Notes: a model not told the origin generated them from the letters alone. Counted from the first letter of the stretch, positions 19,102 to 27,001 are shown. The stretch: 64,000 nucleotides of DNA from an uncultured bacterium (GCA_963844965.1 CAWJQC010000006.1:58014-122013); one strand, 5' to 3'. Program-made: numbers and translations.

Positions 19102-19650
19102 ATGCGCACGATTTACTTCATAACCGGCAGTGAGGGAAAATTCAGGGAGGTGGAACATTTTTTGCGCGCGAAAAACATAAAGATAAAACGGATTAAGCTG
19201 AGTCTGGACGAAATTCAGGAACTGGACGCGGAAAAAATAATCAGGCACAAGGCGCGCGAGGCGGCAAGTAAAATAAGCGACGACTTCATCCTTGAAGACA
19301 CCTCGCTCTATATAAACGGACTGGGCGGACTGCCCGGCCCATTGATCAGATGGTTCCTGCAAGAATTAGGCAATGAAGGAATAAATTGGTTGGCGTCGCG
19401 GGTCGGCAACGGCAAAGCCCGCGCGGAAACTATTCTGGCATGCGCCAGAGGTGGCCGCGTTTTCTATTTCAAGGGCGCTACGAACGGAAAAGTTGTCAAA
19501 CCAAAAGGCAGGAATGATTTCGGCTGGGGGCCACTCTTCAAACCGAACGGCGCGCGCGAAACTTTCGGTGAGATGTCGGGAGACGAAAAAAATAAATGGA
19601 GTATGAGAATCAAAGCCGTTAAAAAATTAGCGGAATTTCTCGGCAGGTAA
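19102..19650 (+). CDS. Non-canonical purine NTP pyrophosphatase (Ham1/RdgB/ITPase family)
   Basis: MRTIYFITGSEGKFREVEHFL...ILEDTSLYINGLGGLPGPLIRWF...FGWGPLFKPNG. Confidence 0.8.
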   Translation: MRTIYFITGSEGKFREVEHFLRAKNIKIKRIKLSLDEIQELDAEKIIRHKAREAASKISDDFILEDTSLYINGLGGLPGPLIRWFLQELGNEGINWLASRVGNGKARAETILACARGGRVFYFKGATNGKVVKPKGRNDFGWGPLFKPNGARETFGEMSGDEKNKWSMRIKAVKKLAEFLGR

Positions 19651-19654
19651 ATCA

Positions 19655-20392
19655 ATGGAGCATGCTTTTTTGGAAATAGGCCACAGGGGCATGCCCGGCT
19701 GGCCAAGAAAAGGAGAAAACACGATGAGATCCTTTCGGCTGGCGCTAGCAAAAGGAGCCGACGCGCTTGAGTTTGACGTCCGCAAAACCAAAGACGGTCA
19801 ACTCGTCGTAATCCATGATTCAACAATTGACCGGACAACTGACGGCCACGGCAATGTCCACGATCTTTCTTACGGCGAACTTATGAAATTTGACGCGGGA
19901 TTCGGCGAGCGCATCCCCCGCCTCGCCGACATGCTTGATGAATTCGGCGGGAAGTGCCTCCTTAATATTGAACTCAAAGAACAAGGTATAGAAAAAGCCG
20001 TCAAAAGTGAAATCCTCGGCCACGGGCTGCAAAAGCTTCCGTACGTCAAGTCAGTCATCGTTTCCGCTTTTGACGCGGACGACAACGCTCCCAGCGCAAA
20101 CTCTTCGTGGGAACAACTCAAAGTATTCGCGCCGGAAATTCCCATCGCCTTAATCGCACGAATGTCAAAAATAGAACGGCTGGGAGACGAAGTATTTGTG
20201 CGAATCGCGAAGGAATACCGCGCCAAGGCAATCGTCCCAATGGCCGATGCCGCAACGACTGCGCTCGTGGAGCTGGCGCACGAAGAGGGACTGCTCGTTT
20301 ACACGGGTACGATTAACAACGCCGACGAAGCGGAACTCTTCCGCAAAATGGGGGTTGATGGCATCTTTTCGGATTGCGTGGAACGTTTGTGA
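19655..20392 (+). CDS. Glycerophosphodiester phosphodiesterase (GDPD/UgpQ family)
   Basis: IGHRGMPGWPRKGENTMRSFRLALAKGADALEFDVRKTKDGQLVVIHDSTIDRTTDGHG. Confidence 0.8.
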   Translation: MEHAFLEIGHRGMPGWPRKGENTMRSFRLALAKGADALEFDVRKTKDGQLVVIHDSTIDRTTDGHGNVHDLSYGELMKFDAGFGERIPRLADMLDEFGGKCLLNIELKEQGIEKAVKSEILGHGLQKLPYVKSVIVSAFDADDNAPSANSSWEQLKVFAPEIPIALIARMSKIERLGDEVFVRIAKEYRAKAIVPMADAATTALVELAHEEGLLVYTGTINNADEAELFRKMGVDGIFSDCVERL

Positions 20393-20395
20393 CAC

Positions 20396-20424
20396 TTGCC
20401 TTTTTGTTAAAATTAGATTATAAT
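20396..20424 (+). promoter_or_regulatory. sigma70-like promoter of ssrA (TTGCCT-N17-TATAAT)
   Basis: ctTGCCTttttgttaaaattagatTATAATcg, about 35 nt upstream of the tmRNA 5' end. Confidence 0.4.
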
Positions 20425-20457
20425 CGTAGCGACGATTACGGTTTGATGTTTTGACAT

Positions 20458-20771
20458 GGGGATGATCGGCTTCGATAAGGATAAGTCCTGAACTGGCAAG
20501 CCAAGAGCTAACTTGTAAATCTGGCAAAAAATCAATAACTGCCAACTCAAAAGTTGCAGCTCCAGCATTCGCTTACGCGTAACGTTGGACATCGGCTGAT
20601 CCGGGCTTCTTGGGTTAATACCGGTGTTATATAAGGAAGCTCGTTCCGAGTTGACGATTCTACGCTCGGCACTAAACACAGAATCATTTCTGTCTAGTTT
20701 AACTGGACTACGCTTGTAGAAGGTTTAAGCGATTTTATCCTTACACGGCGGTTCAATTCCGCCCATCTCCA
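20458..20771 (+). ncRNA. ssrA: tmRNA (SsrA); predicted tag ANSKVAAPAFAYA
   Basis: 5' GGGGATGATCGGCTTCGATAAGG resembles the tmRNA 5' consensus. An internal tag ORF ..GCC AAC TCA AAA GTT GCA GCT CCA GCA TTC GCT TAC GCG TAA is present. The 3' T-arm GGCGG-TTCAATT-CCGCC plus acceptor CATCTCC-A pairs with the 5' GGGGATG. Confidence 0.8.
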
Positions 20772-20948
20772 CTAAAACAAAAATACTCGCTCCTTGTGAG
20801 CGGGTGTTTTTGTTTCTTGTAAAATGGTCTGGCGGAATTGAACGAGGGGTGGGCCGGAGGGGAAACTCGGTGTCCCCTCCGTGTAGGAAATTACTCAAAA
20901 CCGAGGGTTGTGAGAGAGCGAGTTGCTGTATAGCGACTCGCGACGTGA

Positions 20949-20966
20949 AATTCCGCCCATCTCCAC
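20949..20966 (+). repeat. 18-bp direct repeat of the tmRNA 3' end (AATTCCGCCCATCTCCAC), att-like scar
   Basis: Identical to 20755..20772. A partial inverted copy (ggcggaattgaacg) lies at 20826..20840. Confidence 0.55.
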
Positions 20967-21173
20967 ATAACCAGAATTGAACTTTAGAAAACCCTCCAGA
21001 AGGGTTGAAAAATCTAGCCCGACCCTGATTTTTTCTTGGTTTTCCATTTTGCGTTTTTGAAACAGTATCACGCGAGGGAGTGAATATAAAAAAAACCGAC
21101 ACCTATTAGTGCCGGTTGTAAAGGATAGGTTTCTTTAGACAGTGATTCGACGGCTTTTTGCCGTTTTTTTTCG

Positions 21174-21956
21174 TTAAGCCGCAATCTTCTCGGCAAACAC
21201 GGACGGCGGCATCTTGAGGGCGGAGTGGATCCGCGTGTGGTTGTACTGCCACAAGGTGCTGTAGATCTCCGCCACGAGCTCGCCGAAGGTCCCGAACCGG
21301 TTGGGATCACCGAGGTCAATCTTGAACTTGTCATAGAACGATTCCTGGTAGCCGTTTTCCCATGGGGCACCGGGCCGCGACCGCGAGATCGTGATGCCAC
21401 AGTCCCCCAGTGTATCGGTGAACGCTCGTGCCTTGTACTCGCTGCCGTTGTCCGAATGGAAGATGACCGGATGCGGATGGTGGAAAAGCGCGTTGGCCAG
21501 GGTCTGTATCGTGAGGGGCGATCCTTTCCGCAACGCCACATGGACGCCCATCAATCGTCTCGTGAAAAGATCGAGTATCGTGGACACGTACACTTTCTTG
21601 CCGCGATACAGGAACTCCGTGAAATCGGTTGCCCAGACGTGGTTCGCGTACGAGGGCATGATGGCAAGTAAGAGGTTCGGAAAGGCCCGCGATGCCTTTG
21701 ATTTCCGGTATTTCCTGCCTCGCCTCCGGTACGGCCTTATGCCGAAGATTCGCATGACGCGCTGCGCTCGCGGACGGCTCACGCCCAGAGCTTGTCCCAA
21801 GCGCCGGGAACCGTATGCCGGATGGCGCTGCAATTCTTCTTCCATGCGGATCTTGAGCGCCCAATCTTTCTTGTCCTGCCGTGATACGTAGTAGAGCGAT
21901 GCCCGCGAGACGCCCATGGCCCGCGCCATGGCGGACTTGTTCCGCTTTTCCGTCAA
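21174..21956 (-). CDS. IS3-family transposase OrfB (DDE integrase core)
   Basis: ...YVSTILDLFTRRLMGVHVALRKGSPL...FHSDNGSEYKARAFTDTL...ISRSRPGAPWENGYQESFYDKFK. Confidence 0.8.
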   Translation of the reverse strand: MTEKRNKSAMARAMGVSRASLYYVSRQDKKDWALKIRMEEELQRHPAYGSRRLGQALGVSRPRAQRVMRIFGIRPYRRRGRKYRKSKASRAFPNLLLAIMPSYANHVWATDFTEFLYRGKKVYVSTILDLFTRRLMGVHVALRKGSPLTIQTLANALFHHPHPVIFHSDNGSEYKARAFTDTLGDCGITISRSRPGAPWENGYQESFYDKFKIDLGDPNRFGTFGELVAEIYSTLWQYNHTRIHSALKMPPSVFAEKIAA

Positions 21957-22216
21957 TTCTTTTTTTGGGCCTGGGAGAGCTTCACGGTGAGCTCGCCCAC
22001 CACTTCAAACAGCTCCCTGTTCTGCTTCTGGAGACGGCTGAACTCGCCCCAGGAAGGGACGCCCGATGCTCCTGCGCCTAGCCAATTGTAGATGGTGGAC
22101 TCGTGCAAACCGTGGTCCTTCGCAGCCTGCGCTACGGGGACTCCTTCTTCCTTCACCCGGCGGAGGATGTCCGCCTTCACTTCCTTCGCAATCCGATGCC
22201 CTTTTTTGTTGCTCAT
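21953..22216 (-). CDS. IS3-family transposase OrfA (HTH)
   Basis: MSNKKGHRIAKEVKADILRRVKEEGVPVAQAAKDHGLHESTIYNWL... Confidence 0.75.
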   Translation of the reverse strand: MSNKKGHRIAKEVKADILRRVKEEGVPVAQAAKDHGLHESTIYNWLGAGASGVPSWGEFSRLQKQNRELFEVVGELTVKLSQAQKKN

Positions 22217-22516
22217 GACACAATGGTAGTTTGTTTCGACCTTTGTGTCTAAATTATCCTATCCGGGTCAAAGCTTCAAGATTCGCCCACCGGTCTTTAT
22301 ACCAATTTATAATAACAGCAATAAATTACACAAACAGTTATCAGAACTCTCCAAGGAGGCTCATAAAAACTATTCCAATGAAAAAGTTATTGCCGAAATC
22401 GACCAAGAGATAAACGAAGTTTACTTGAAAGTTTGCCAGCAAGAAAATAAATAGCAATGAAAATACTCTTATAACTCTTCGAAGAAATGATGGGGATACT
22501 TAATTTAAACTAAGCC

Positions 22517-24028
22517 ATGAAAGCAATAATCTTATCTCGCGTATCAACGAAAGAGCAGGCCGATGAGGGGCAATCCATACCAGCGCAAACGGGACGGCTC
22601 ACTGAATACGTTAATAAAAAACAACTTGATCATTGGAAGGTTTTTGAGATCGCCGAAAGTTCTACGCACGATACAAGGAAAAAGTTTGATAAGGTTTTGG
22701 AGCTTATTAAGAAATCGCACGAGCCGCTTGCGCTTGTGGTTGAAACCGTTGACCGGCTGCAGCGGAGCTTTAAGGAAAGCGTTATTTTGGACGATCTGCG
22801 CAAAGAAGGCAAAGTTGAAATCCACTTTGTCCGCGAGGGCTTGATATTAACGAAGGATTCGAACAGCGCCCAGCTTTTACAATGGGATATGGGCGTGATG
22901 TTTGCCCGCAGCTACGTTTTGCAATTAAGCGATAACGTGAAGCGCAGCAATGAGCAGAAACTGAAGAACGGCGAATGGATAAGCAAAGCGCCGATAGGTT
23001 ATCGAAATATCAGGGATGAAAACGACAAGCCGGATATAGAAGTTGACCCCGAAGCATCGCCTTTTATCGTCAAGGTTTTCGAGCGCTACGCCACTGGCAA
23101 TTACTCGATGATTACGTTGGCCAAACAGATGCGCGAAGAAGGTTTTACCGGAAAACAACACGGCAATCCGATCACCGTTAGCCAGATAGAGCGCATACTT
23201 AAAAATTCTTTTTACTACGGCGTTATGGAGGTTCACGGCAAACAATATCAGCACCGCTACCCACCGCTTATCTCAATGCACCTGTTTTTGAAATGCCGCA
23301 AGGTTATAGAAAGTTGGAATAAAAAACCGTTTCAACACGCCGCGAGGCCATTTATCTTTCGAGGTATCCTATCGTGTGCAACCTGCGGTTGCGCCATTAC
23401 CGCAGAAATGGCAAAGGGCAAGTATATTTATTATCATTGCACGAATTTCAGGGGTATATGCGAGAAGGTATACGTGCCCGAAAAAGACCTTTTAAAGCCC
23501 ATAAAACGCTATCTGCGCAAGTTTGTGCTGCCGCAGGAAGGAATTGACTACGTTGTCGGTAAACTACGCACAACGACAGAAATCGAGCAGGAATACCACA
23601 ATCAGGCGATGGCTACCCTAAAAGCCGAATATGACCGCTACGAGGCCAGAATCAGCAAAATGACCGATGACAAATACGACGGCAGTATTACGCCCGAAAT
23701 CTACGACAAAAAATTGAAAGAGTATAAGGCAAAGCAGGCCGACTTATTGAATCAGATGCAGGATCACAGCAAAGCCGACGAGCAGCATCACCTTACGGCT
23801 ACGAAATTACTTGATGTTTGCAAACGCGCCGATTCAATCTTCGAAAGTTCTGAACCGGCTGAAAAACGGCAATTTTTGAATTTCGTATTTCAGAACTCGA
23901 CGCTAAACCGAAATAAGCCAATGTTTATGCTGAAACCCGTGTTTGCGGGCATAGTAAAAGCGCACGAAACTCATAAATGGGGTGCCTATCGGGATTCGAA
24001 CCCGAGCCGAGAGTGCCACAGACTCTAG
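22517..24028 (+). CDS. Large serine recombinase (resolvase N-terminus, recombinase domain and zinc ribbon)
   Basis: MKAIILSRVSTKEQADEGQSIPAQ (catalytic Ser region) ... CATCGCAI...YYHC zinc ribbon. The last ~17 codons overlap the tRNA-His gene on the opposite strand. Confidence 0.85.
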   Translation: MKAIILSRVSTKEQADEGQSIPAQTGRLTEYVNKKQLDHWKVFEIAESSTHDTRKKFDKVLELIKKSHEPLALVVETVDRLQRSFKESVILDDLRKEGKVEIHFVREGLILTKDSNSAQLLQWDMGVMFARSYVLQLSDNVKRSNEQKLKNGEWISKAPIGYRNIRDENDKPDIEVDPEASPFIVKVFERYATGNYSMITLAKQMREEGFTGKQHGNPITVSQIERILKNSFYYGVMEVHGKQYQHRYPPLISMHLFLKCRKVIESWNKKPFQHAARPFIFRGILSCATCGCAITAEMAKGKYIYYHCTNFRGICEKVYVPEKDLLKPIKRYLRKFVLPQEGIDYVVGKLRTTTEIEQEYHNQAMATLKAEYDRYEARISKMTDDKYDGSITPEIYDKKLKEYKAKQADLLNQMQDHSKADEQHHLTATKLLDVCKRADSIFESSEPAEKRQFLNFVFQNSTLNRNKPMFMLKPVFAGIVKAHETHKWGAYRDSNPSRECHRL

Positions 24029-24052
24029 TGCTGCCGTTACACCATAGGCACC
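23978..24052 (-). tRNA. tRNA-His (anticodon GUG) with G-1, C73 and encoded CCA
   Basis: Reverse complement: G(-1)-GTGCCTA-TG-GTGT-AACGGCA-GCAC-T-AGAGT-CTGTGGC-ACTCT-CGGC-TCGGG-TTCGAAT-CCCGA-TAGGCAC-C-CCA. Confidence 0.8.
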
Positions 24053-24972: not shown

Positions 24973-25635
24973 ATGAGATTCAAACTATCTTCGGTTGGCG
25001 GCGAGTATGCCAGCGTCTTTGAATTGACACACGGCGATCGGCAAATGTTGATTCTTAATCTGCGGACATTTCATAAACTTCCTGAAAATATTCCGGTTGG
25101 TGCTTCAACCGTAGTAGCCGGCATCGCGATCCCCCATTTCGGGAAAGTGGTGAAGACTGGGAGGAAACCAATCGTTTCTCATGGTGAGCGGATGCTCCCG
25201 GTCGGCAGTGAATGTTATGTTTTTTCTCCTGCCTCGTCGGGCTTTCTGACCGCGATGTTGGCCGCTGCGGCCGCCTCCGAATCGCCAGATTCATCGTTCA
25301 CTGTCCATCCGGTGATGATGCGGCAAGTTCCAAATGGAAACGGGAACGGCAATCATAAAGCCATTAAGCACGCCCTGACGGAAGCATTCGGAACTTGTTC
25401 CGAAGGATGGGGCGGCAACTTCCATATTTTCATCTGGGGAAAGATTGACGAGCCCGTCGCGCTACTTGTCCTTTGTAAGGAAGAATTTGAAGAGGAAGCG
25501 GCGCTACTGGTAGCTACTAAGGCCGCCGCGGGCGCGCTAACCCCCCTCATTGAGTCCTCCGAGTTTGAAGACTTGAAGGAAAAACGGGGATTAACGGCGT
25601 ACAACCGTGGTCCCCTCTGCCTTCTGGGGGACTAA
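24973..25635 (+). CDS. Hypothetical protein
   Basis: 220 aa, visibly GC-rich, contains an NGNGNGNH motif. No recognisable domain. Confidence 0.4.
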   Translation: MRFKLSSVGGEYASVFELTHGDRQMLILNLRTFHKLPENIPVGASTVVAGIAIPHFGKVVKTGRKPIVSHGERMLPVGSECYVFSPASSGFLTAMLAAAAASESPDSSFTVHPVMMRQVPNGNGNGNHKAIKHALTEAFGTCSEGWGGNFHIFIWGKIDEPVALLVLCKEEFEEEAALLVATKAAAGALTPLIESSEFEDLKEKRGLTAYNRGPLCLLGD

Positions 25636-25706: not shown

Positions 25707-25786
25707 GTACACAGATTTAGTTAGACGTGGAATCCCAGCAACGGGATCACCACAAATTTGATAGCCAATACAAGGAGGGCCTAACC

Positions 25787-27001
25787 ATGGCCAGTAATGT
25801 AAAGAAAGCATTTGAGGAAGCTGGAATTGATGTTCCCGAAGTTCCCACCTCCGGCATCGCCGGAACGGAAACGACGGTACCACCTTCTGCTCCGGCGGAC
25901 GCAACTGCAACCGCTACAACACCGGCACCTTCCGTACCAGCAGCTACCGACACCACACCAACTGCCGACAAACAACCAGTTGTTCTTTCTTTCGGCAGAG
26001 TTGACCGGGAAGCCGCTGCCAAACTCCGCGAGCAGAAGAAGACGGAATTGGAAGCAATCCCGTCCTTCGTCGCGGAACTCGTTGTCTTGCTCAAGAACCC
26101 CCGCGAAGAGACCATACTGTCTATGACCGACGGCACCGAGCGTTCGCTCACCCTCGAAGAATTCGAGGCATACATCGCCACCGTCGTAAACGGGACCCAG
26201 CATCGCGGCGTCCGCCAATCGTTTACAACTGCCGTCGTGGAACAGATGTTGGGGCAATTTCCACCGTCTGATCATCTGTTCGGCGTCGCGTTCACGAGGG
26301 TTTCAACAGCGCTAACAGATACCGACGGAAGGGGCTTTTTCTTCGAAGTAGAGAAGGATTGGGCCCTGAAGAACCCCGGCAACGTAATCTGGATGTACAG
26401 GAGCGACGGGAGCGGCAAGGCGCCGTTCGCCTCGGTCGCACCGGACTCCACTCGTCTCATGATTGCCACCAAAAAGTGGCTGGACGAGATTGAGCGGGCG
26501 GAGAAATCCCGCATCAAAACCGGGACCAAGCCGTTCCTAGAAGCGTTTTACCAGGGCGGGGAAACCGCTTTCTTCCTCAAGAAGAAGGAGATTCCCCGCA
26601 GGGACGGCGGCACTATAATCCGAAAGGCCGGTCACTTCCGCATTCACATCGAAGACGGCAAAAACGGGAGAATCCGCCCAGTGGAGGCACTGGAATCGCC
26701 TCACCACGACCTGTTTGAGGAAATGACCTCTCGCAGGGAGTGGGTATCAATCGGCGTCCTAGCGCCGGAAATCGTCGGCGCCGACCCGGAAAATAGGCAG
26801 AAAATGATCGCCGCCTATTTCCGGGACGTGGAGAACTATGAGCAGCGCAAGCGGTTCATCCGTTTCGCGCACATCATAATCGATGGCTACATCGACGCCC
26901 TGGCATCCGAGAAGAAGGCGGCCGAGGCGCACGAAGGTGGCCGAGAAGCCGGTACCTGCGGCCAAAACTGCCGAAACCAAACCCACCGGAGAGCACCGTG
27001 A
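25787..27001 (+). CDS. Hypothetical large protein, part 1 (probably continues into 26883..27788 through a frameshift)
   Basis: The start was chosen at MASNVKK after the RBS aaggaggg. The ORF overlaps the next ORF by 119 nt in another frame. The second frame (KVAEKPVPAAKTAETKP...) looks more protein-like across the overlap. Confidence 0.45.
   Translation: MASNVKKAFEEAGIDVPEVPTSGIAGTETTVPPSAPADATATATTPAPSVPAATDTTPTADKQPVVLSFGRVDREAAAKLREQKKTELEAIPSFVAELVVLLKNPREETILSMTDGTERSLTLEEFEAYIATVVNGTQHRGVRQSFTTAVVEQMLGQFPPSDHLFGVAFTRVSTALTDTDGRGFFFEVEKDWALKNPGNVIWMYRSDGSGKAPFASVAPDSTRLMIATKKWLDEIERAEKSRIKTGTKPFLEAFYQGGETAFFLKKKEIPRRDGGTIIRKAGHFRIHIEDGKNGRIRPVEALESPHHDLFEEMTSRREWVSIGVLAPEIVGADPENRQKMIAAYFRDVENYEQRKRFIRFAHIIIDGYIDALASEKKAAEAHEGGREAGTCGQNCRNQTHRRAP

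What the first reader, a model, noticed from the sequence alone, without database searches (positions are those of the whole stretch)
20458..24052. ssrA to tRNA-His interval is a mobile-element graveyard: tmRNA 3'-end direct repeats, IS3 element, serine recombinase overlapping tRNA-His
The 18 nt at the 3' end of the tmRNA gene (AATTCCGCCCATCTCCAC, 20755..20772) recur at 20949..20966, with an inverted partial copy at 20826..20840. These are classic integration scars at ssrA. About 150 bp further lies an IS3-family element (imperfect IRs TGnnnnGGATAGG, orfA/orfB joined by A AAA AAG). Then comes a 503-aa large serine recombinase whose last ~17 codons run antisense through the 3' half of a complete tRNA-His(GUG), so the recombinase gene abuts or overlaps its probable attachment tRNA.
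Basis: partly seen in the sequence, partly recalled or inferred. Interest (0 to 1): 0.6.

Follow-up and report, generated by a model that had tools for sequence, protein, structure and literature searches.

The report
Decayed tRNA-targeting serine-integrase element beside ssrA
Between the tmRNA gene and tRNA-His of this Patescibacteria genome lie an IS3 element, the stump of a mobile element whose serine integrase belongs to a large, apparently undescribed family that inserts into tRNA/tmRNA gene ends through a site inside its own gene, and a small folded cassette that recurs after tmRNA genes.

Summary

The 503-aa large serine recombinase (LSR) is the main result. In 52 of 80 related loci from Patescibacteria, Chlamydiota and other phyla, its homologs end antisense in a tRNA or tmRNA gene. 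Eleven more end in a tRNA-like fragment.

Elements with both ends show that attP lies inside the recombinase ORF. The shared core is 6-15 nt at the CCA/acceptor end. The element's left end carries an in-frame "LD.FRT.DW" tail exon. A T-loop-like motif sits 5 nt closer to the core in the tRNA arm than in the element arm, as in known LSR attB/attP pairs.

The window copy is a stump. Only the recombinase gene, attR and the last 60 codons of a type IIG restriction-modification cargo gene remain. That cargo gene is cut exactly at the end of an IS3 element (21117-22270) that has no target duplication.

The tmRNA repeat closes a ~190-nt folded cassette. About 21 of 94 other Patescibacteria ssrA loci carry a related cassette, two of them with a GIY-YIG gene. 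Its function is unknown.

The window instance is ordinary decay. The family-level properties appear undescribed.

The parts
20458..20772 (+). ssrA (tmRNA), intact, tag ANSKVAAPAFAYA
   Evidence: ARAGORN; Rfam RF00023 119.5 bits
20775..20815 (+). Terminator hairpin directly after ssrA
   Evidence: Inverted repeat I3; RNAfold
20773..20966 (+). ssrA-tail cassette of the window-like 'type 2' class: terminator, T' segment, three hairpins, second copy of the ssrA 3' end. It folds as a multi-branch structure, z = -6.6.
   Evidence: no Rfam family
20831..20843 (+). T': perfect antisense copy of the ssrA T-arm segment GTTCAATTCCGCC. Nine nt of it pair with 20949-20957 to close the cassette.
   Evidence: the same motif lies 43-80 nt past ssrA in about 21 of 94 loci
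20949..20966 (+). Second copy of the ssrA 3' end (T-loop 3' half, T-stem, acceptor strand, discriminator)
21117..22270 (-). IS3-family insertion sequence, 1154 bp. orfA is 21953-22216, orfB is 21174-21956, and the A AAA AAG slippery site is at 21960-21966. Single copy in the window, no target-site duplication.
22272..22454 (+). Last 60 codons of a type IIG (Eco57I/MmeI-like) restriction-modification cargo gene, cut off by the IS end
   Evidence: 47% identity, E 5e-19, to residues 1027-1085 of the 1086-aa gene directly upstream of the recombinase in L020
22517..24028 (+). Large serine recombinase, intact ORF in the integrated (tRNA-encoded tail) form. W488 is the antisense of CCA.
23950..24005 (.). 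attR. The P arm is the recombinase 3' coding end and holds CGAAAC at 23966-23971. The core is TGGGGTGC at 23978-23985. The B' arm is the tRNA-His acceptor/T-arm, with TTCGAAC at 23995-24001.
   Evidence: Inferred by comparison with attL/attR pairs of relatives and with LI integrase site geometry
23978..24052 (-). tRNA-His(GUG) with encoded CCA and G-1. Its last nucleotides are probably element-derived.
   Evidence: L009 comparison

Best explanation
The interval holds three independent mobile-DNA records.

(1) tRNA-His carries the right-hand stump of an integrative element of a widespread family. The full element reads: small ORFs, SpoVG, a ~371-aa Rep-like protein (G2P/rolling-circle type), an HTH_17 excisionase-like protein, variable restriction-modification cargo, then a large serine recombinase (LSR). 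In this family attP lies inside the 3' end of the recombinase ORF. Its core mimics the antisense CCA/discriminator/acceptor end of the target tRNA or tmRNA, and crossover occurs there. After integration the ORF therefore runs into the tRNA and takes a tRNA-encoded tail. The conserved ~35-aa 'LD.FRT.DW' tail exon is left behind at the far end of the element. Recognition probably uses the T-loop sequence TTCGAAC of the tRNA as the zinc-ribbon-domain motif of attB, 5 bp closer to the crossover than the similar YAGAAC motif in attP.

(2) In the window, an IS3-family element inserted into the type IIG R-M cargo gene. Everything to its left (the rest of the cargo gene, the cassette genes, attL) has been lost. 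What remains is an intact but stranded recombinase gene plus attR, so the remnant cannot excise.

(3) The ssrA repeat belongs to a separate ~190-nt folded cassette. This cassette is a member of a patchy family that is probably mobile and sits immediately after ssrA terminators in Patescibacteria. Some members carry a GIY-YIG nuclease gene. I propose it is a small site-specific or homing cassette that carries its own partial copy of the ssrA 3' end.

Shown: the anatomy, the family-wide tRNA/tmRNA association, the in-frame tail exons, the short cores, the 5-nt motif offset, the truncation at the IS, and the recurrence and covariation of the cassette. Inferred: the crossover position, the functional role of the tail swap, the deletion mechanism, and how the cassette moves.
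For: LSR domains are present. 1547 homologs were found, mostly ~490-505 aa. Relatives at 66-81% identity sit at the end of a conserved cassette and overlap tRNA-His or tRNA-Gln antisense.

Census of 80 genome loci: 52 have an antisense tRNA or tmRNA at the ORF end (Asn 13, His 10, Gln 10, Tyr 7, tmRNA 6, Leu 2, Glu 2, Trp 1, Arg 1), 11 have tRNA-like tails, and 7 have attP-type tails. W488 (TGG, antisense of CCA) is invariant in the 8-protein alignment A2 and most listed tails keep it, though some His-targeting relatives lack it.

The tail-exon HMM hits the + strand upstream of the recombinase in about 45 loci, in frame with the core, with stop codons just upstream. It finds nothing in the window. 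attL/attR cores are 6-15 nt at the CCA/acceptor end. The 5-nt offset of TCGAAC against YAGAAC holds in His, Tyr and tmRNA elements (sequences). It matches the 5-bp shift of the zinc-ribbon motif between attP and attB of LI integrase (PMC3783163).

Window homology to relatives starts exactly at ATG 22517, and no cassette gene is present anywhere in the window. The R-M C-terminus abuts the IS end. IS ends were fixed against five related copies; a 3-bp TSD is seen in L189/L191, and the window copy has none.

Cassette: recurrence, fold z = -6.6, covarying P2 and P1 helices, cassettes 72-92% identical where the neighbouring tmRNA bodies are 61-78%, GIY-YIG versions that share the right end.
Against: No recombination was observed; every att assignment is comparative. 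Cores are short, so the crossover dinucleotide is known only to within about 3 bp. The closest both-ended relative, L008, has a poorly matching core. The B arm (host side) shows no clear motif.

The tail exon overlaps the P' arm, so part of its conservation is at the DNA level: GAAC is kept even where Arg becomes Gly. A protein-level role for the tail is therefore unproven.

The Rep assignment rests on a single 24.9-bit Pfam hit in one homolog.

The missing TSD could also come from an assembly join across two IS copies in this MAG.

For the ssrA cassette, no sufficiently close empty site was found to show which copy is native. The window copy ('type 2') lacks the GGA/GA junction of the better-supported type and is not hit by model R1.
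Confidence: 0.78

Rival explanations
1. The ssrA direct repeat is the attL/attR scar of a conventional large tyrosine-integrase island in the tmRNA T-loop, and the interior of that island was later deleted.
For: The 18-nt identity runs from the T-loop to the 3' end, the classic sublocation for tmRNA islands (established knowledge: Williams 2002). The first copy is followed by its own terminator, as island-supplied ends often are.
Against: The same small architecture, with a conserved internal fold, recurs in about 21 of 94 loci. No large island lies between distant repeats in any of the 98 loci. The T' segment covaries with the second copy in L097 and L183. No integrase remnant is detectable in 20773-21116.
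Confidence: 0.12
2. The adjacency of ssrA plus cassette to the recombinase stump is an assembly artefact: two copies of a multi-copy IS were collapsed in a metagenome-assembled contig. This is compatible with the rest of the best explanation.
For: The IS has no target duplication. Homologous transposases lie mostly on ~1.1-1.5 kb contigs, typical of repeats that break assemblies. Recombinant IS flanks exist in a related population (L193). GC is 0.58-0.60 in the IS against ~0.45 in its flanks.
Against: Only one IS copy is in the 64-kb window. The R-M gene truncation at the right junction is real either way. Other parts of the window also reach GC 0.58-0.65.
Confidence: 0.15
3. The stranded recombinase is retained because it has been domesticated, for example as an invertase/resolvase or as a helper acting on related incoming elements, and is not simply awaiting decay.
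For: The ORF is intact, with every residue that is invariant in the 8-protein alignment, and is 81% identical to P0002.
Against: There is no partner site or tail exon in 64 kb. The ORF lacks the conserved tail. Recent truncation by a seemingly intact IS explains the intactness equally well.
Confidence: 0.1
4. The ssrA cassette is an RNA-level element, such as a degenerate intron, an intervening sequence or a processing signal. In this view T' acts as a guide that pairs across the T-loop junction GUUC|AAUUCCGCC, and the cassette is not a DNA-mobile unit.
For: T' is contiguous antisense to the junction in the order expected of a group I internal guide sequence (P10 part, then P1 part). The fold is strong. 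Helices covary around invariant GGA/GA loops. GIY-YIG genes commonly lodge in introns. A group I intron in the tmRNA T-loop has precedent (PMC13011429).
Against: No Rfam intron or ribozyme hit at E <= 1. The domains, ~90-130 nt, are too small for group I. The first ssrA copy is complete and terminated, and several second copies are degenerate, so splicing is not needed and could not yield a working tmRNA.
Confidence: 0.2

Closest known systems
Large serine integrases (LI/A118, Bxb1, phiC31, TP901-1, SPbeta SprA; CcrAB of SCCmec)
   Same: The domain order is the same: resolvase catalytic domain with Ser10, recombinase domain, zinc ribbon. The shared cores are short. A sequence motif sits 5 bp closer to the centre in attB than in attP. 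A small HTH protein encoded nearby is a candidate directionality factor.
   Different: Sequence similarity is weak: PDB gives only the TP901-1 catalytic domain at E 4e-4, and the best NCBIfam model, CcrB, scores 94 bits against a cutoff of 900. The targets are tRNA and tmRNA gene 3' ends. Mageeney et al. 2020 state that use of a t(m)RNA gene by an S-Int had not been reported (PMC7192596). attP lies inside the recombinase ORF.
SSV-type 'suicidal' tyrosine integrases of archaea (and, from memory, Mx8 IntP, whose attP lies in the int coding end)
   Same: The attachment site is inside the integrase gene, the target is a tRNA gene, and integration changes the integrase product (PMC8371274).
   Different: Those enzymes are tyrosine recombinases, and the SSV type is split into two large inactive parts. 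[quoted passage not shown] Here a bacterial serine recombinase loses or swaps only a ~35-aa C-terminal tail.
tRNA/tmRNA-integrating genomic islands with tyrosine integrases (Islander/TIGER classes)
   Same: The gene 3' end is restored by element sequence, the integrase gene sits next to the target, and tandem arrays occur (L034, L053).
   Different: The identity blocks are far shorter (6-15 nt, sometimes 2-3) and lie at the CCA/acceptor end. The enzyme family is different.
IS3-family insertion sequences
   Same: Two ORFs joined by an A AAA AAG -1 frameshift site, a DDE rve domain, TG...CA ends, and a 3-bp duplication in L189/L191.
   Different: The window copy has no target duplication and has truncated a gene.
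Free-standing GIY-YIG homing cassettes and cis-mobilizable elements (CIMEs); group I intron in the tmRNA T-loop
   Same: The ssrA cassette is small, patchily distributed and sometimes tandem, is bounded by a copy of the target's end, and sometimes carries a GIY-YIG gene. A GIY-YIG cassette bounded by a tRNA-Phe 5' fragment occurs in L004.
   Different: The cassette has a conserved internal multi-helix fold with an antisense copy of the target. No intron or ribozyme signature was found. No enzyme has been assigned to the ORF-less majority.

Membership tests
Large serine recombinase (LSR / serine integrase) | N-terminal resolvase catalytic domain with a serine nucleophile | tested here: met
   PF00239 at residues 3-154, E 1e-15. 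The RVSTKEQ motif with S10 is invariant in alignment A2.
Large serine recombinase (LSR / serine integrase) | C-terminal recombinase domain plus zinc ribbon | tested here: met
   PF07508 at 178-265 and PF13408 at 280-334. Cys287, 290, 308 and 315 are invariant.
Large serine recombinase (LSR / serine integrase) | Short att sites with a 2-bp crossover, and the zinc-ribbon motif shifted 5 bp inward in attB relative to attP | tested here: inconclusive
   Cores of 6-15 nt and a 5-nt offset of TCGAAC against YAGAAC in three subfamilies fit the model. The crossover was not mapped and no binding was tested.
Large serine recombinase (LSR / serine integrase) | Cognate recombination directionality factor | not testable with these tools
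   The HTH_17/excisionase-like gene conserved in relatives is a candidate. It is absent from the window.
Named LSR equivalogs (CcrA/B/C, XisF) | Score above the NCBIfam curated cutoff | tested here: not met
   CcrB 94.1 bits against 900; XisF 68.1 against 375.
Intact integrative element of this LSR family | attL with the in-frame LD.FRT.DW tail exon, plus the SpoVG/Rep/HTH_17 cassette upstream of the recombinase | tested here: not met
   No tail-exon hit in the window at E <= 10. No cassette gene was found by tblastn. Only 60 codons of cargo remain.
IS3 family | DDE (rve) transposase expressed from orfA/orfB through a -1 frameshift at A AAA AAG | tested here: met
   The slippery site at 21960-21966 and the frame relation were read.
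IS3 family | Imperfect terminal inverted repeats ending 5'-TG...CA-3' | tested here: met
   TGACCCGGATAGG... and ...CCTATCCTTTACA; the ends agree with five related copies.
IS3 family | 3-4 bp target-site duplication | tested here: not met
   The window flanks are ctt | acc. The related copies L189 and L191 have TGG | TGG.
SSV-type suicidal integrase | Tyrosine recombinase whose gene is split into two parts by integration at an internal attP | tested here: not met
   The enzyme is a serine recombinase. Only the last ~35 codons are exchanged.
Classical ssrA genomic island (tyrosine integrase) | Integrase gene and island DNA between direct repeats of the ssrA 3' end | tested here: not met
   Only 176 nt lie between the repeats, with no coding similarity. 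No distant repeats were found in 98 related loci apart from L151 (1467 nt), where a second copy of the same small cassette ends.
Group I intron in the tmRNA T-loop | Match to Intron_gpI or related covariance models, with ssrA interrupted | tested here: not met
   No hit at E <= 1 in the window or in 10 related loci. The first ssrA copy is complete.

The most novel reading that the evidence does not exclude
Two linked readings remain open.

(a) This is a phylum-spanning family of bacterial serine integrases dedicated to tRNA/tmRNA gene ends. It uses the universal T-loop as a ready-made half of attB and switches its own C-terminal tail on integration. That would be a built-in directionality or 'suicide-lite' switch, so far known only for archaeal tyrosine integrases.

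(b) The ssrA-tail cassette is a new class of small structured mobile element that carries an antisense 'guide' to its own target, the tmRNA T-arm. Variants of its core occur after a tRNA-Ile gene and in other hairpins.
Probability: 0.4. Interest if true: 0.8.

Novelty: new variant of a known kind. Interest (0 to 1): 0.66.

Why it matters
Serine integrases are leading genome-engineering tools, and their natural targets were thought to avoid tRNA genes. A large family that targets tRNA and tmRNA ends would offer three things. It would supply many natural integrase/att pairs whose attB is present in almost any bacterium. It would give a simple rule for retargeting: co-vary the core inside the ORF while keeping the T-loop motif. 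It would also give a natural case in which integration edits the integrase itself.

The family is also a vehicle for restriction-modification genes in Patescibacteria, Chlamydiota and other host-dependent bacteria, where little is known about mobile DNA. The ssrA cassette adds a candidate new structured element for RNA and mobile-element researchers.

For this window alone, the practical message is that the recombinase is a stranded remnant and the IS is the likely cause.

Tried and rejected
- An exact-protein look-up of the recombinase and of P0121 found no record.
- The GDPD protein scan of metagenome contigs found no relatives. The exact GDPD look-up gave only a 1.5-kb contig ending before the second repeat.
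- A search for a tRNA-His 3'-end repeat or a tail exon anywhere in the window found only chance 8-12-mers.
- Exact 10-mer repeat searches missed the element left ends. The ends were found only through the tail-exon motif.
- IMG/VR holds only two distant relatives (23-33% identity), so the family is not recognised as viral.
- PHROGs and Pfam gave nothing for the 258-aa, 59-aa and (in L001) 371-aa cassette proteins.
- Reading the ssrA scar as an att site of the same LSR family was rejected. There is no FRT/YAGAAC arm after the distal copy, and a stop codon lies directly before the proximal copy in the relevant frame (read).
- Group I intron, hammerhead and K-turn readings of the cassette were considered. 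Rfam gives no support.
- RNAalifold on the full 13-sequence MAFFT alignment was uninformative because of the variable hairpins. A trimmed 6-sequence core worked.
- Close 'empty' ssrA sites that would show which copy is native were not available.
- An ancestral ssrA/tRNA-His junction was not found.


Full report
**1. What is in the sequence**

ARAGORN calls the tmRNA gene at 20458-20772(+), and Rfam matches 20458-20774 at 119.5 bits. Both also call tRNA-His(GUG) at 23978-24051(-).

The 18-mer AATTCCGCCCATCTCCAC occurs exactly twice in the 64-kb window, at 20755-20772 and 20949-20966. None of 100 shuffles gave two matches. An independent Logan assembly is 100% identical to window 19357-20908.

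The IS3 element and the 503-aa recombinase have the expected domains. The recombinase ORF overlaps the tRNA by 51 nt. The host is a Patescibacteria (CPR) bacterium, judging from the source names of the homologs and related loci.

**2. The recombinase belongs to a family that targets tRNA and tmRNA ends**

The protein has 1547 homologs, mostly 490-505 aa long. The closest ones with context (66-81% identity) sit at the right end of a conserved cassette: a 59-aa ORF, SpoVG, a ~371-aa protein, HTH_17, restriction-modification cargo, then the recombinase. Their 3' ends overlap, antisense, tRNA-His or tRNA-Gln.

A scan of one genome per species found 272 relatives, and I kept 80 loci. They come from Patescibacteria, Chlamydiota, Babeliales, Coxiellaceae, Bdellovibrionales, Bacteroidota and others, at 45-74% identity. 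The census of those 80 loci:

| ORF end | Loci |
|---|---|
| Antisense tRNA or tmRNA | 52 |
| tRNA-like tail, no full tRNA called (tandem or nested sites) | 11 |
| Other conserved (attP-type) tail | 7 |
| Contig ends too soon to tell | 6 |
| Unclear | 4 |

The 52 targets are Asn 13, His 10, Gln 10, Tyr 7, tmRNA 6, Leu 2, Glu 2, Trp 1 and Arg 1. In the 8-protein alignment A2, W488 is invariant; its codon TGG is the antisense of CCA (in some elements, of the discriminator plus acceptor). Most of the tails listed across the 80 loci keep this W, though some His-targeting relatives lack it (L017, L018, L019, L023, L080). The 'DSN' that follows is the antisense T-loop.

**3. attP lies inside the ORF**

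The seven 'other' tails share the motif W..L.D.FRT.(D/N)W..I...L. An HMM of this motif hits the + strand 5-11 kb upstream of the recombinase in about 45 loci. There it continues in frame from a short copy of the tRNA end, with stop codons just upstream. It is therefore an orphan exon of 21-46 codons. Examples:

- L053: TGG AGG TGG AGA GAC AAG TTC AGA ACT = WRWRDKFRT
- L068: EWGRLDAFRT

Pairing the left and right ends gives shared cores of only 6-15 nt, and less in L008. The cores sit at the CCA/discriminator/acceptor end. This fits a serine recombinase with a 2-bp crossover, not a tyrosine integrase.

The excised form would therefore encode a recombinase with a conserved ~35-aa tail. Integration replaces that tail with whatever the antisense tRNA encodes, which is why ORF ends vary (489-556 aa).

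In L009 the reconstructed native attB lacks an encoded CCA, while the integrated gene has one, supplied by the element.

**4. Site geometry**

In His (L009), Tyr (L068) and tmRNA (L053) elements, the T-loop-derived TCGAAC of the tRNA arm starts 5 nt closer to the core than the YAGAAC of the element's P' arm (sequences). [quoted passage not shown]

GAAC is kept in P' even where the encoded Arg becomes Gly (L062, L086). That points to a DNA-level constraint.

I infer that the universal T-loop serves as the zinc-ribbon motif of attB. Retargeting would then mainly need the core inside the ORF to co-vary with the acceptor end. This is inference; no binding or crossover was measured.

**5. The window copy is a stump**

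Homology to relatives begins exactly at ATG 22517, and no cassette protein matches anywhere in the window. The tail-exon HMM finds nothing at E <= 10. No tRNA-His repeat exists.

The 60 codons at 22272-22454 are the C-terminus of a 1086-aa Eco57I/MmeI-type enzyme. In L020 that gene lies directly upstream of the recombinase (47% identity, E 5e-19). This homology starts 2 nt after the IS end.

**6. The IS**

Five copies of a related IS (79% DNA identity, 1160 bp) fix the window ends at 21117 and 22270. Two of those copies (L189, L191) have a 3-bp duplication (TGG); the others have recombinant flanks. The window copy has flanks ctt and acc, so it has no duplication.

The IS is intact: orfA, orfB and the A AAA AAG site are all present. 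It is single-copy in the window and richer in GC than its flanks (0.58-0.60 against ~0.45).

The simplest reading is insertion into the cargo gene followed by an IS-associated deletion. An assembly join across two IS copies cannot be excluded.

**7. The ssrA repeat is a recurrent cassette**

A metagenome scan for the 26-nt ssrA 3' end returned 98 Patescibacteria ssrA loci. Their tmRNAs are 68-79% identical to the window's.

Of the 94 loci with enough downstream sequence, about 21 carry the antisense T-arm motif 43-80 nt past ssrA, just after the terminator. Twelve to fourteen also carry a second copy of the ssrA 3' end 139-433 nt downstream, in some cases in tandem. Only one locus has a repeat further away: L151, at 1467 nt, where a second copy of the same cassette ends. 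The small size is therefore the normal state.

Window 20773-20972 folds into a terminator plus a multi-branch domain. The domain is closed by GGCGGAAUU (20831-39) pairing with AAUUCCGCC (20949-57), with z = -6.6. The right end of the window cassette is 94% identical to L127/L186 and matches L139.

One cassette type has a three-way junction with these features:

- An invariant GGA/GA internal loop is flanked by covarying triplets: GGC/GCC, GAC/GTC, ACC/GGT and AGC/GCT, plus GTC/GAC in L117 and GCC/GGC in L188a read by eye (RNAalifold on the trimmed core).
- The closing helix shows compensatory changes against the real ssrA in L097 and L183.

Cassettes are 72-92% identical where the neighbouring tmRNA bodies are 61-78%. 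In L136 and L139 a ~80-aa GIY-YIG ORF replaces the left part of the cassette.

The junction core also occurs after a tRNA-Ile terminator in L148. A weaker match to the core model (24.6 bits), sharing mainly the distal P3 hairpin, lies inside an unrelated 28-bp hairpin in L164. Rfam has no match.

The cassette lacks the FRT/YAGAAC arm of the recombinase family, so I treat it as a separate element of unknown mechanism. My best guess is a small site-specific or homing cassette.

**8. Comparison with known systems**

The enzyme is a large serine recombinase by domain content, but it belongs to no named equivalog. Mageeney et al. [quoted passage not shown] Tycheposons include a few LSR-bearing members. 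My searches found no description of this family.

[quoted passage not shown] Here only the tail is exchanged.

**9. Verdict**

The window instance is ordinary decay: an IS-truncated element. It does expose a family-level mechanism and a recurrent ssrA cassette, and both appear undescribed.

Noticed in passing
L004:9614-10000 (minus strand): An 82-aa GIY-YIG gene sits directly upstream of tRNA-Phe. It is preceded by a 20-nt copy of the tRNA-Phe 5' end (GCCGCGGTAGCTCAATGGTA) and a hairpin. This mirrors the ssrA cassettes that carry a GIY-YIG gene.
   Followed up: partly
L148:2700-2830 (minus strand): The P2-J-P3 core of the ssrA cassette (GGCGGAGC...GCGAGCC CGGGTCG...CGTGACC) occurs after the terminator of tRNA-Ile(tat), 78.5 bits with model R1. 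The module is therefore not restricted to ssrA.
   Followed up: partly
L164:8840-8950 and L108:871-932: A weaker match to the core model (24.6 bits), sharing mainly the distal P3 hairpin, sits in the loop of an unrelated 28-bp perfect hairpin in an intergenic region far from any tRNA. This suggests a MITE-like or hairpin-embedded way of existing.
   Followed up: no
window:24973-29462: About 4.5 kb of ORFs with no Pfam match for the two ORFs scanned (24973-25635 and 25727-27001) and GC up to 0.65 in the profiled part (to ~28 kb). They lie between tRNA-His/DedA and FtsH. The related genome L001 has only a 0.5-kb Pterin_4a gene at this position, so this may be another insertion next to the same tRNA.
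   Followed up: no
L053:1150-1210; L034, L048, L055, L056: Tandem or nested arrays. The left flank of the L053 element is the 3' end of another recombinase gene. Several loci carry two or three tail exons, or a tRNA fragment followed kilobases later by the intact tRNA.
   Followed up: partly
L022, L051, L079, L083 (whole contigs): Several contigs start within 200 nt of the tail exon and end at the recombinase/tRNA junction, so the contig equals one element. This is expected if assemblies break at att sites because integrated and other forms coexist.
   Followed up: no
L190/L191/L193: Two identical copies of the related IS3-family element flank an MmeI-like R-M gene on one scaffold. L193 combines the left flank of one copy with the right flank of the other, which indicates IS-mediated rearrangement around R-M genes in that population.
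   Followed up: no
L020:5417-6538: The conserved ~371-aa cassette protein gives a weak Pfam hit to Phage_CRI (replication protein G2P N-terminal domain; 24.9 bits, cutoff 21.7). This suggests the elements replicate by a rolling circle.
   Followed up: partly
window:20967-21116: After the second ssrA copy comes another partial antisense T-loop piece (GAATTGAAC, 20974-20982) and a weak hairpin. At 21088-21116 there is a minus-strand terminator-like hairpin (ACCGGCAC...GTGTCGG plus a T run) abutting the IS; it has no gene to serve.
   Followed up: no
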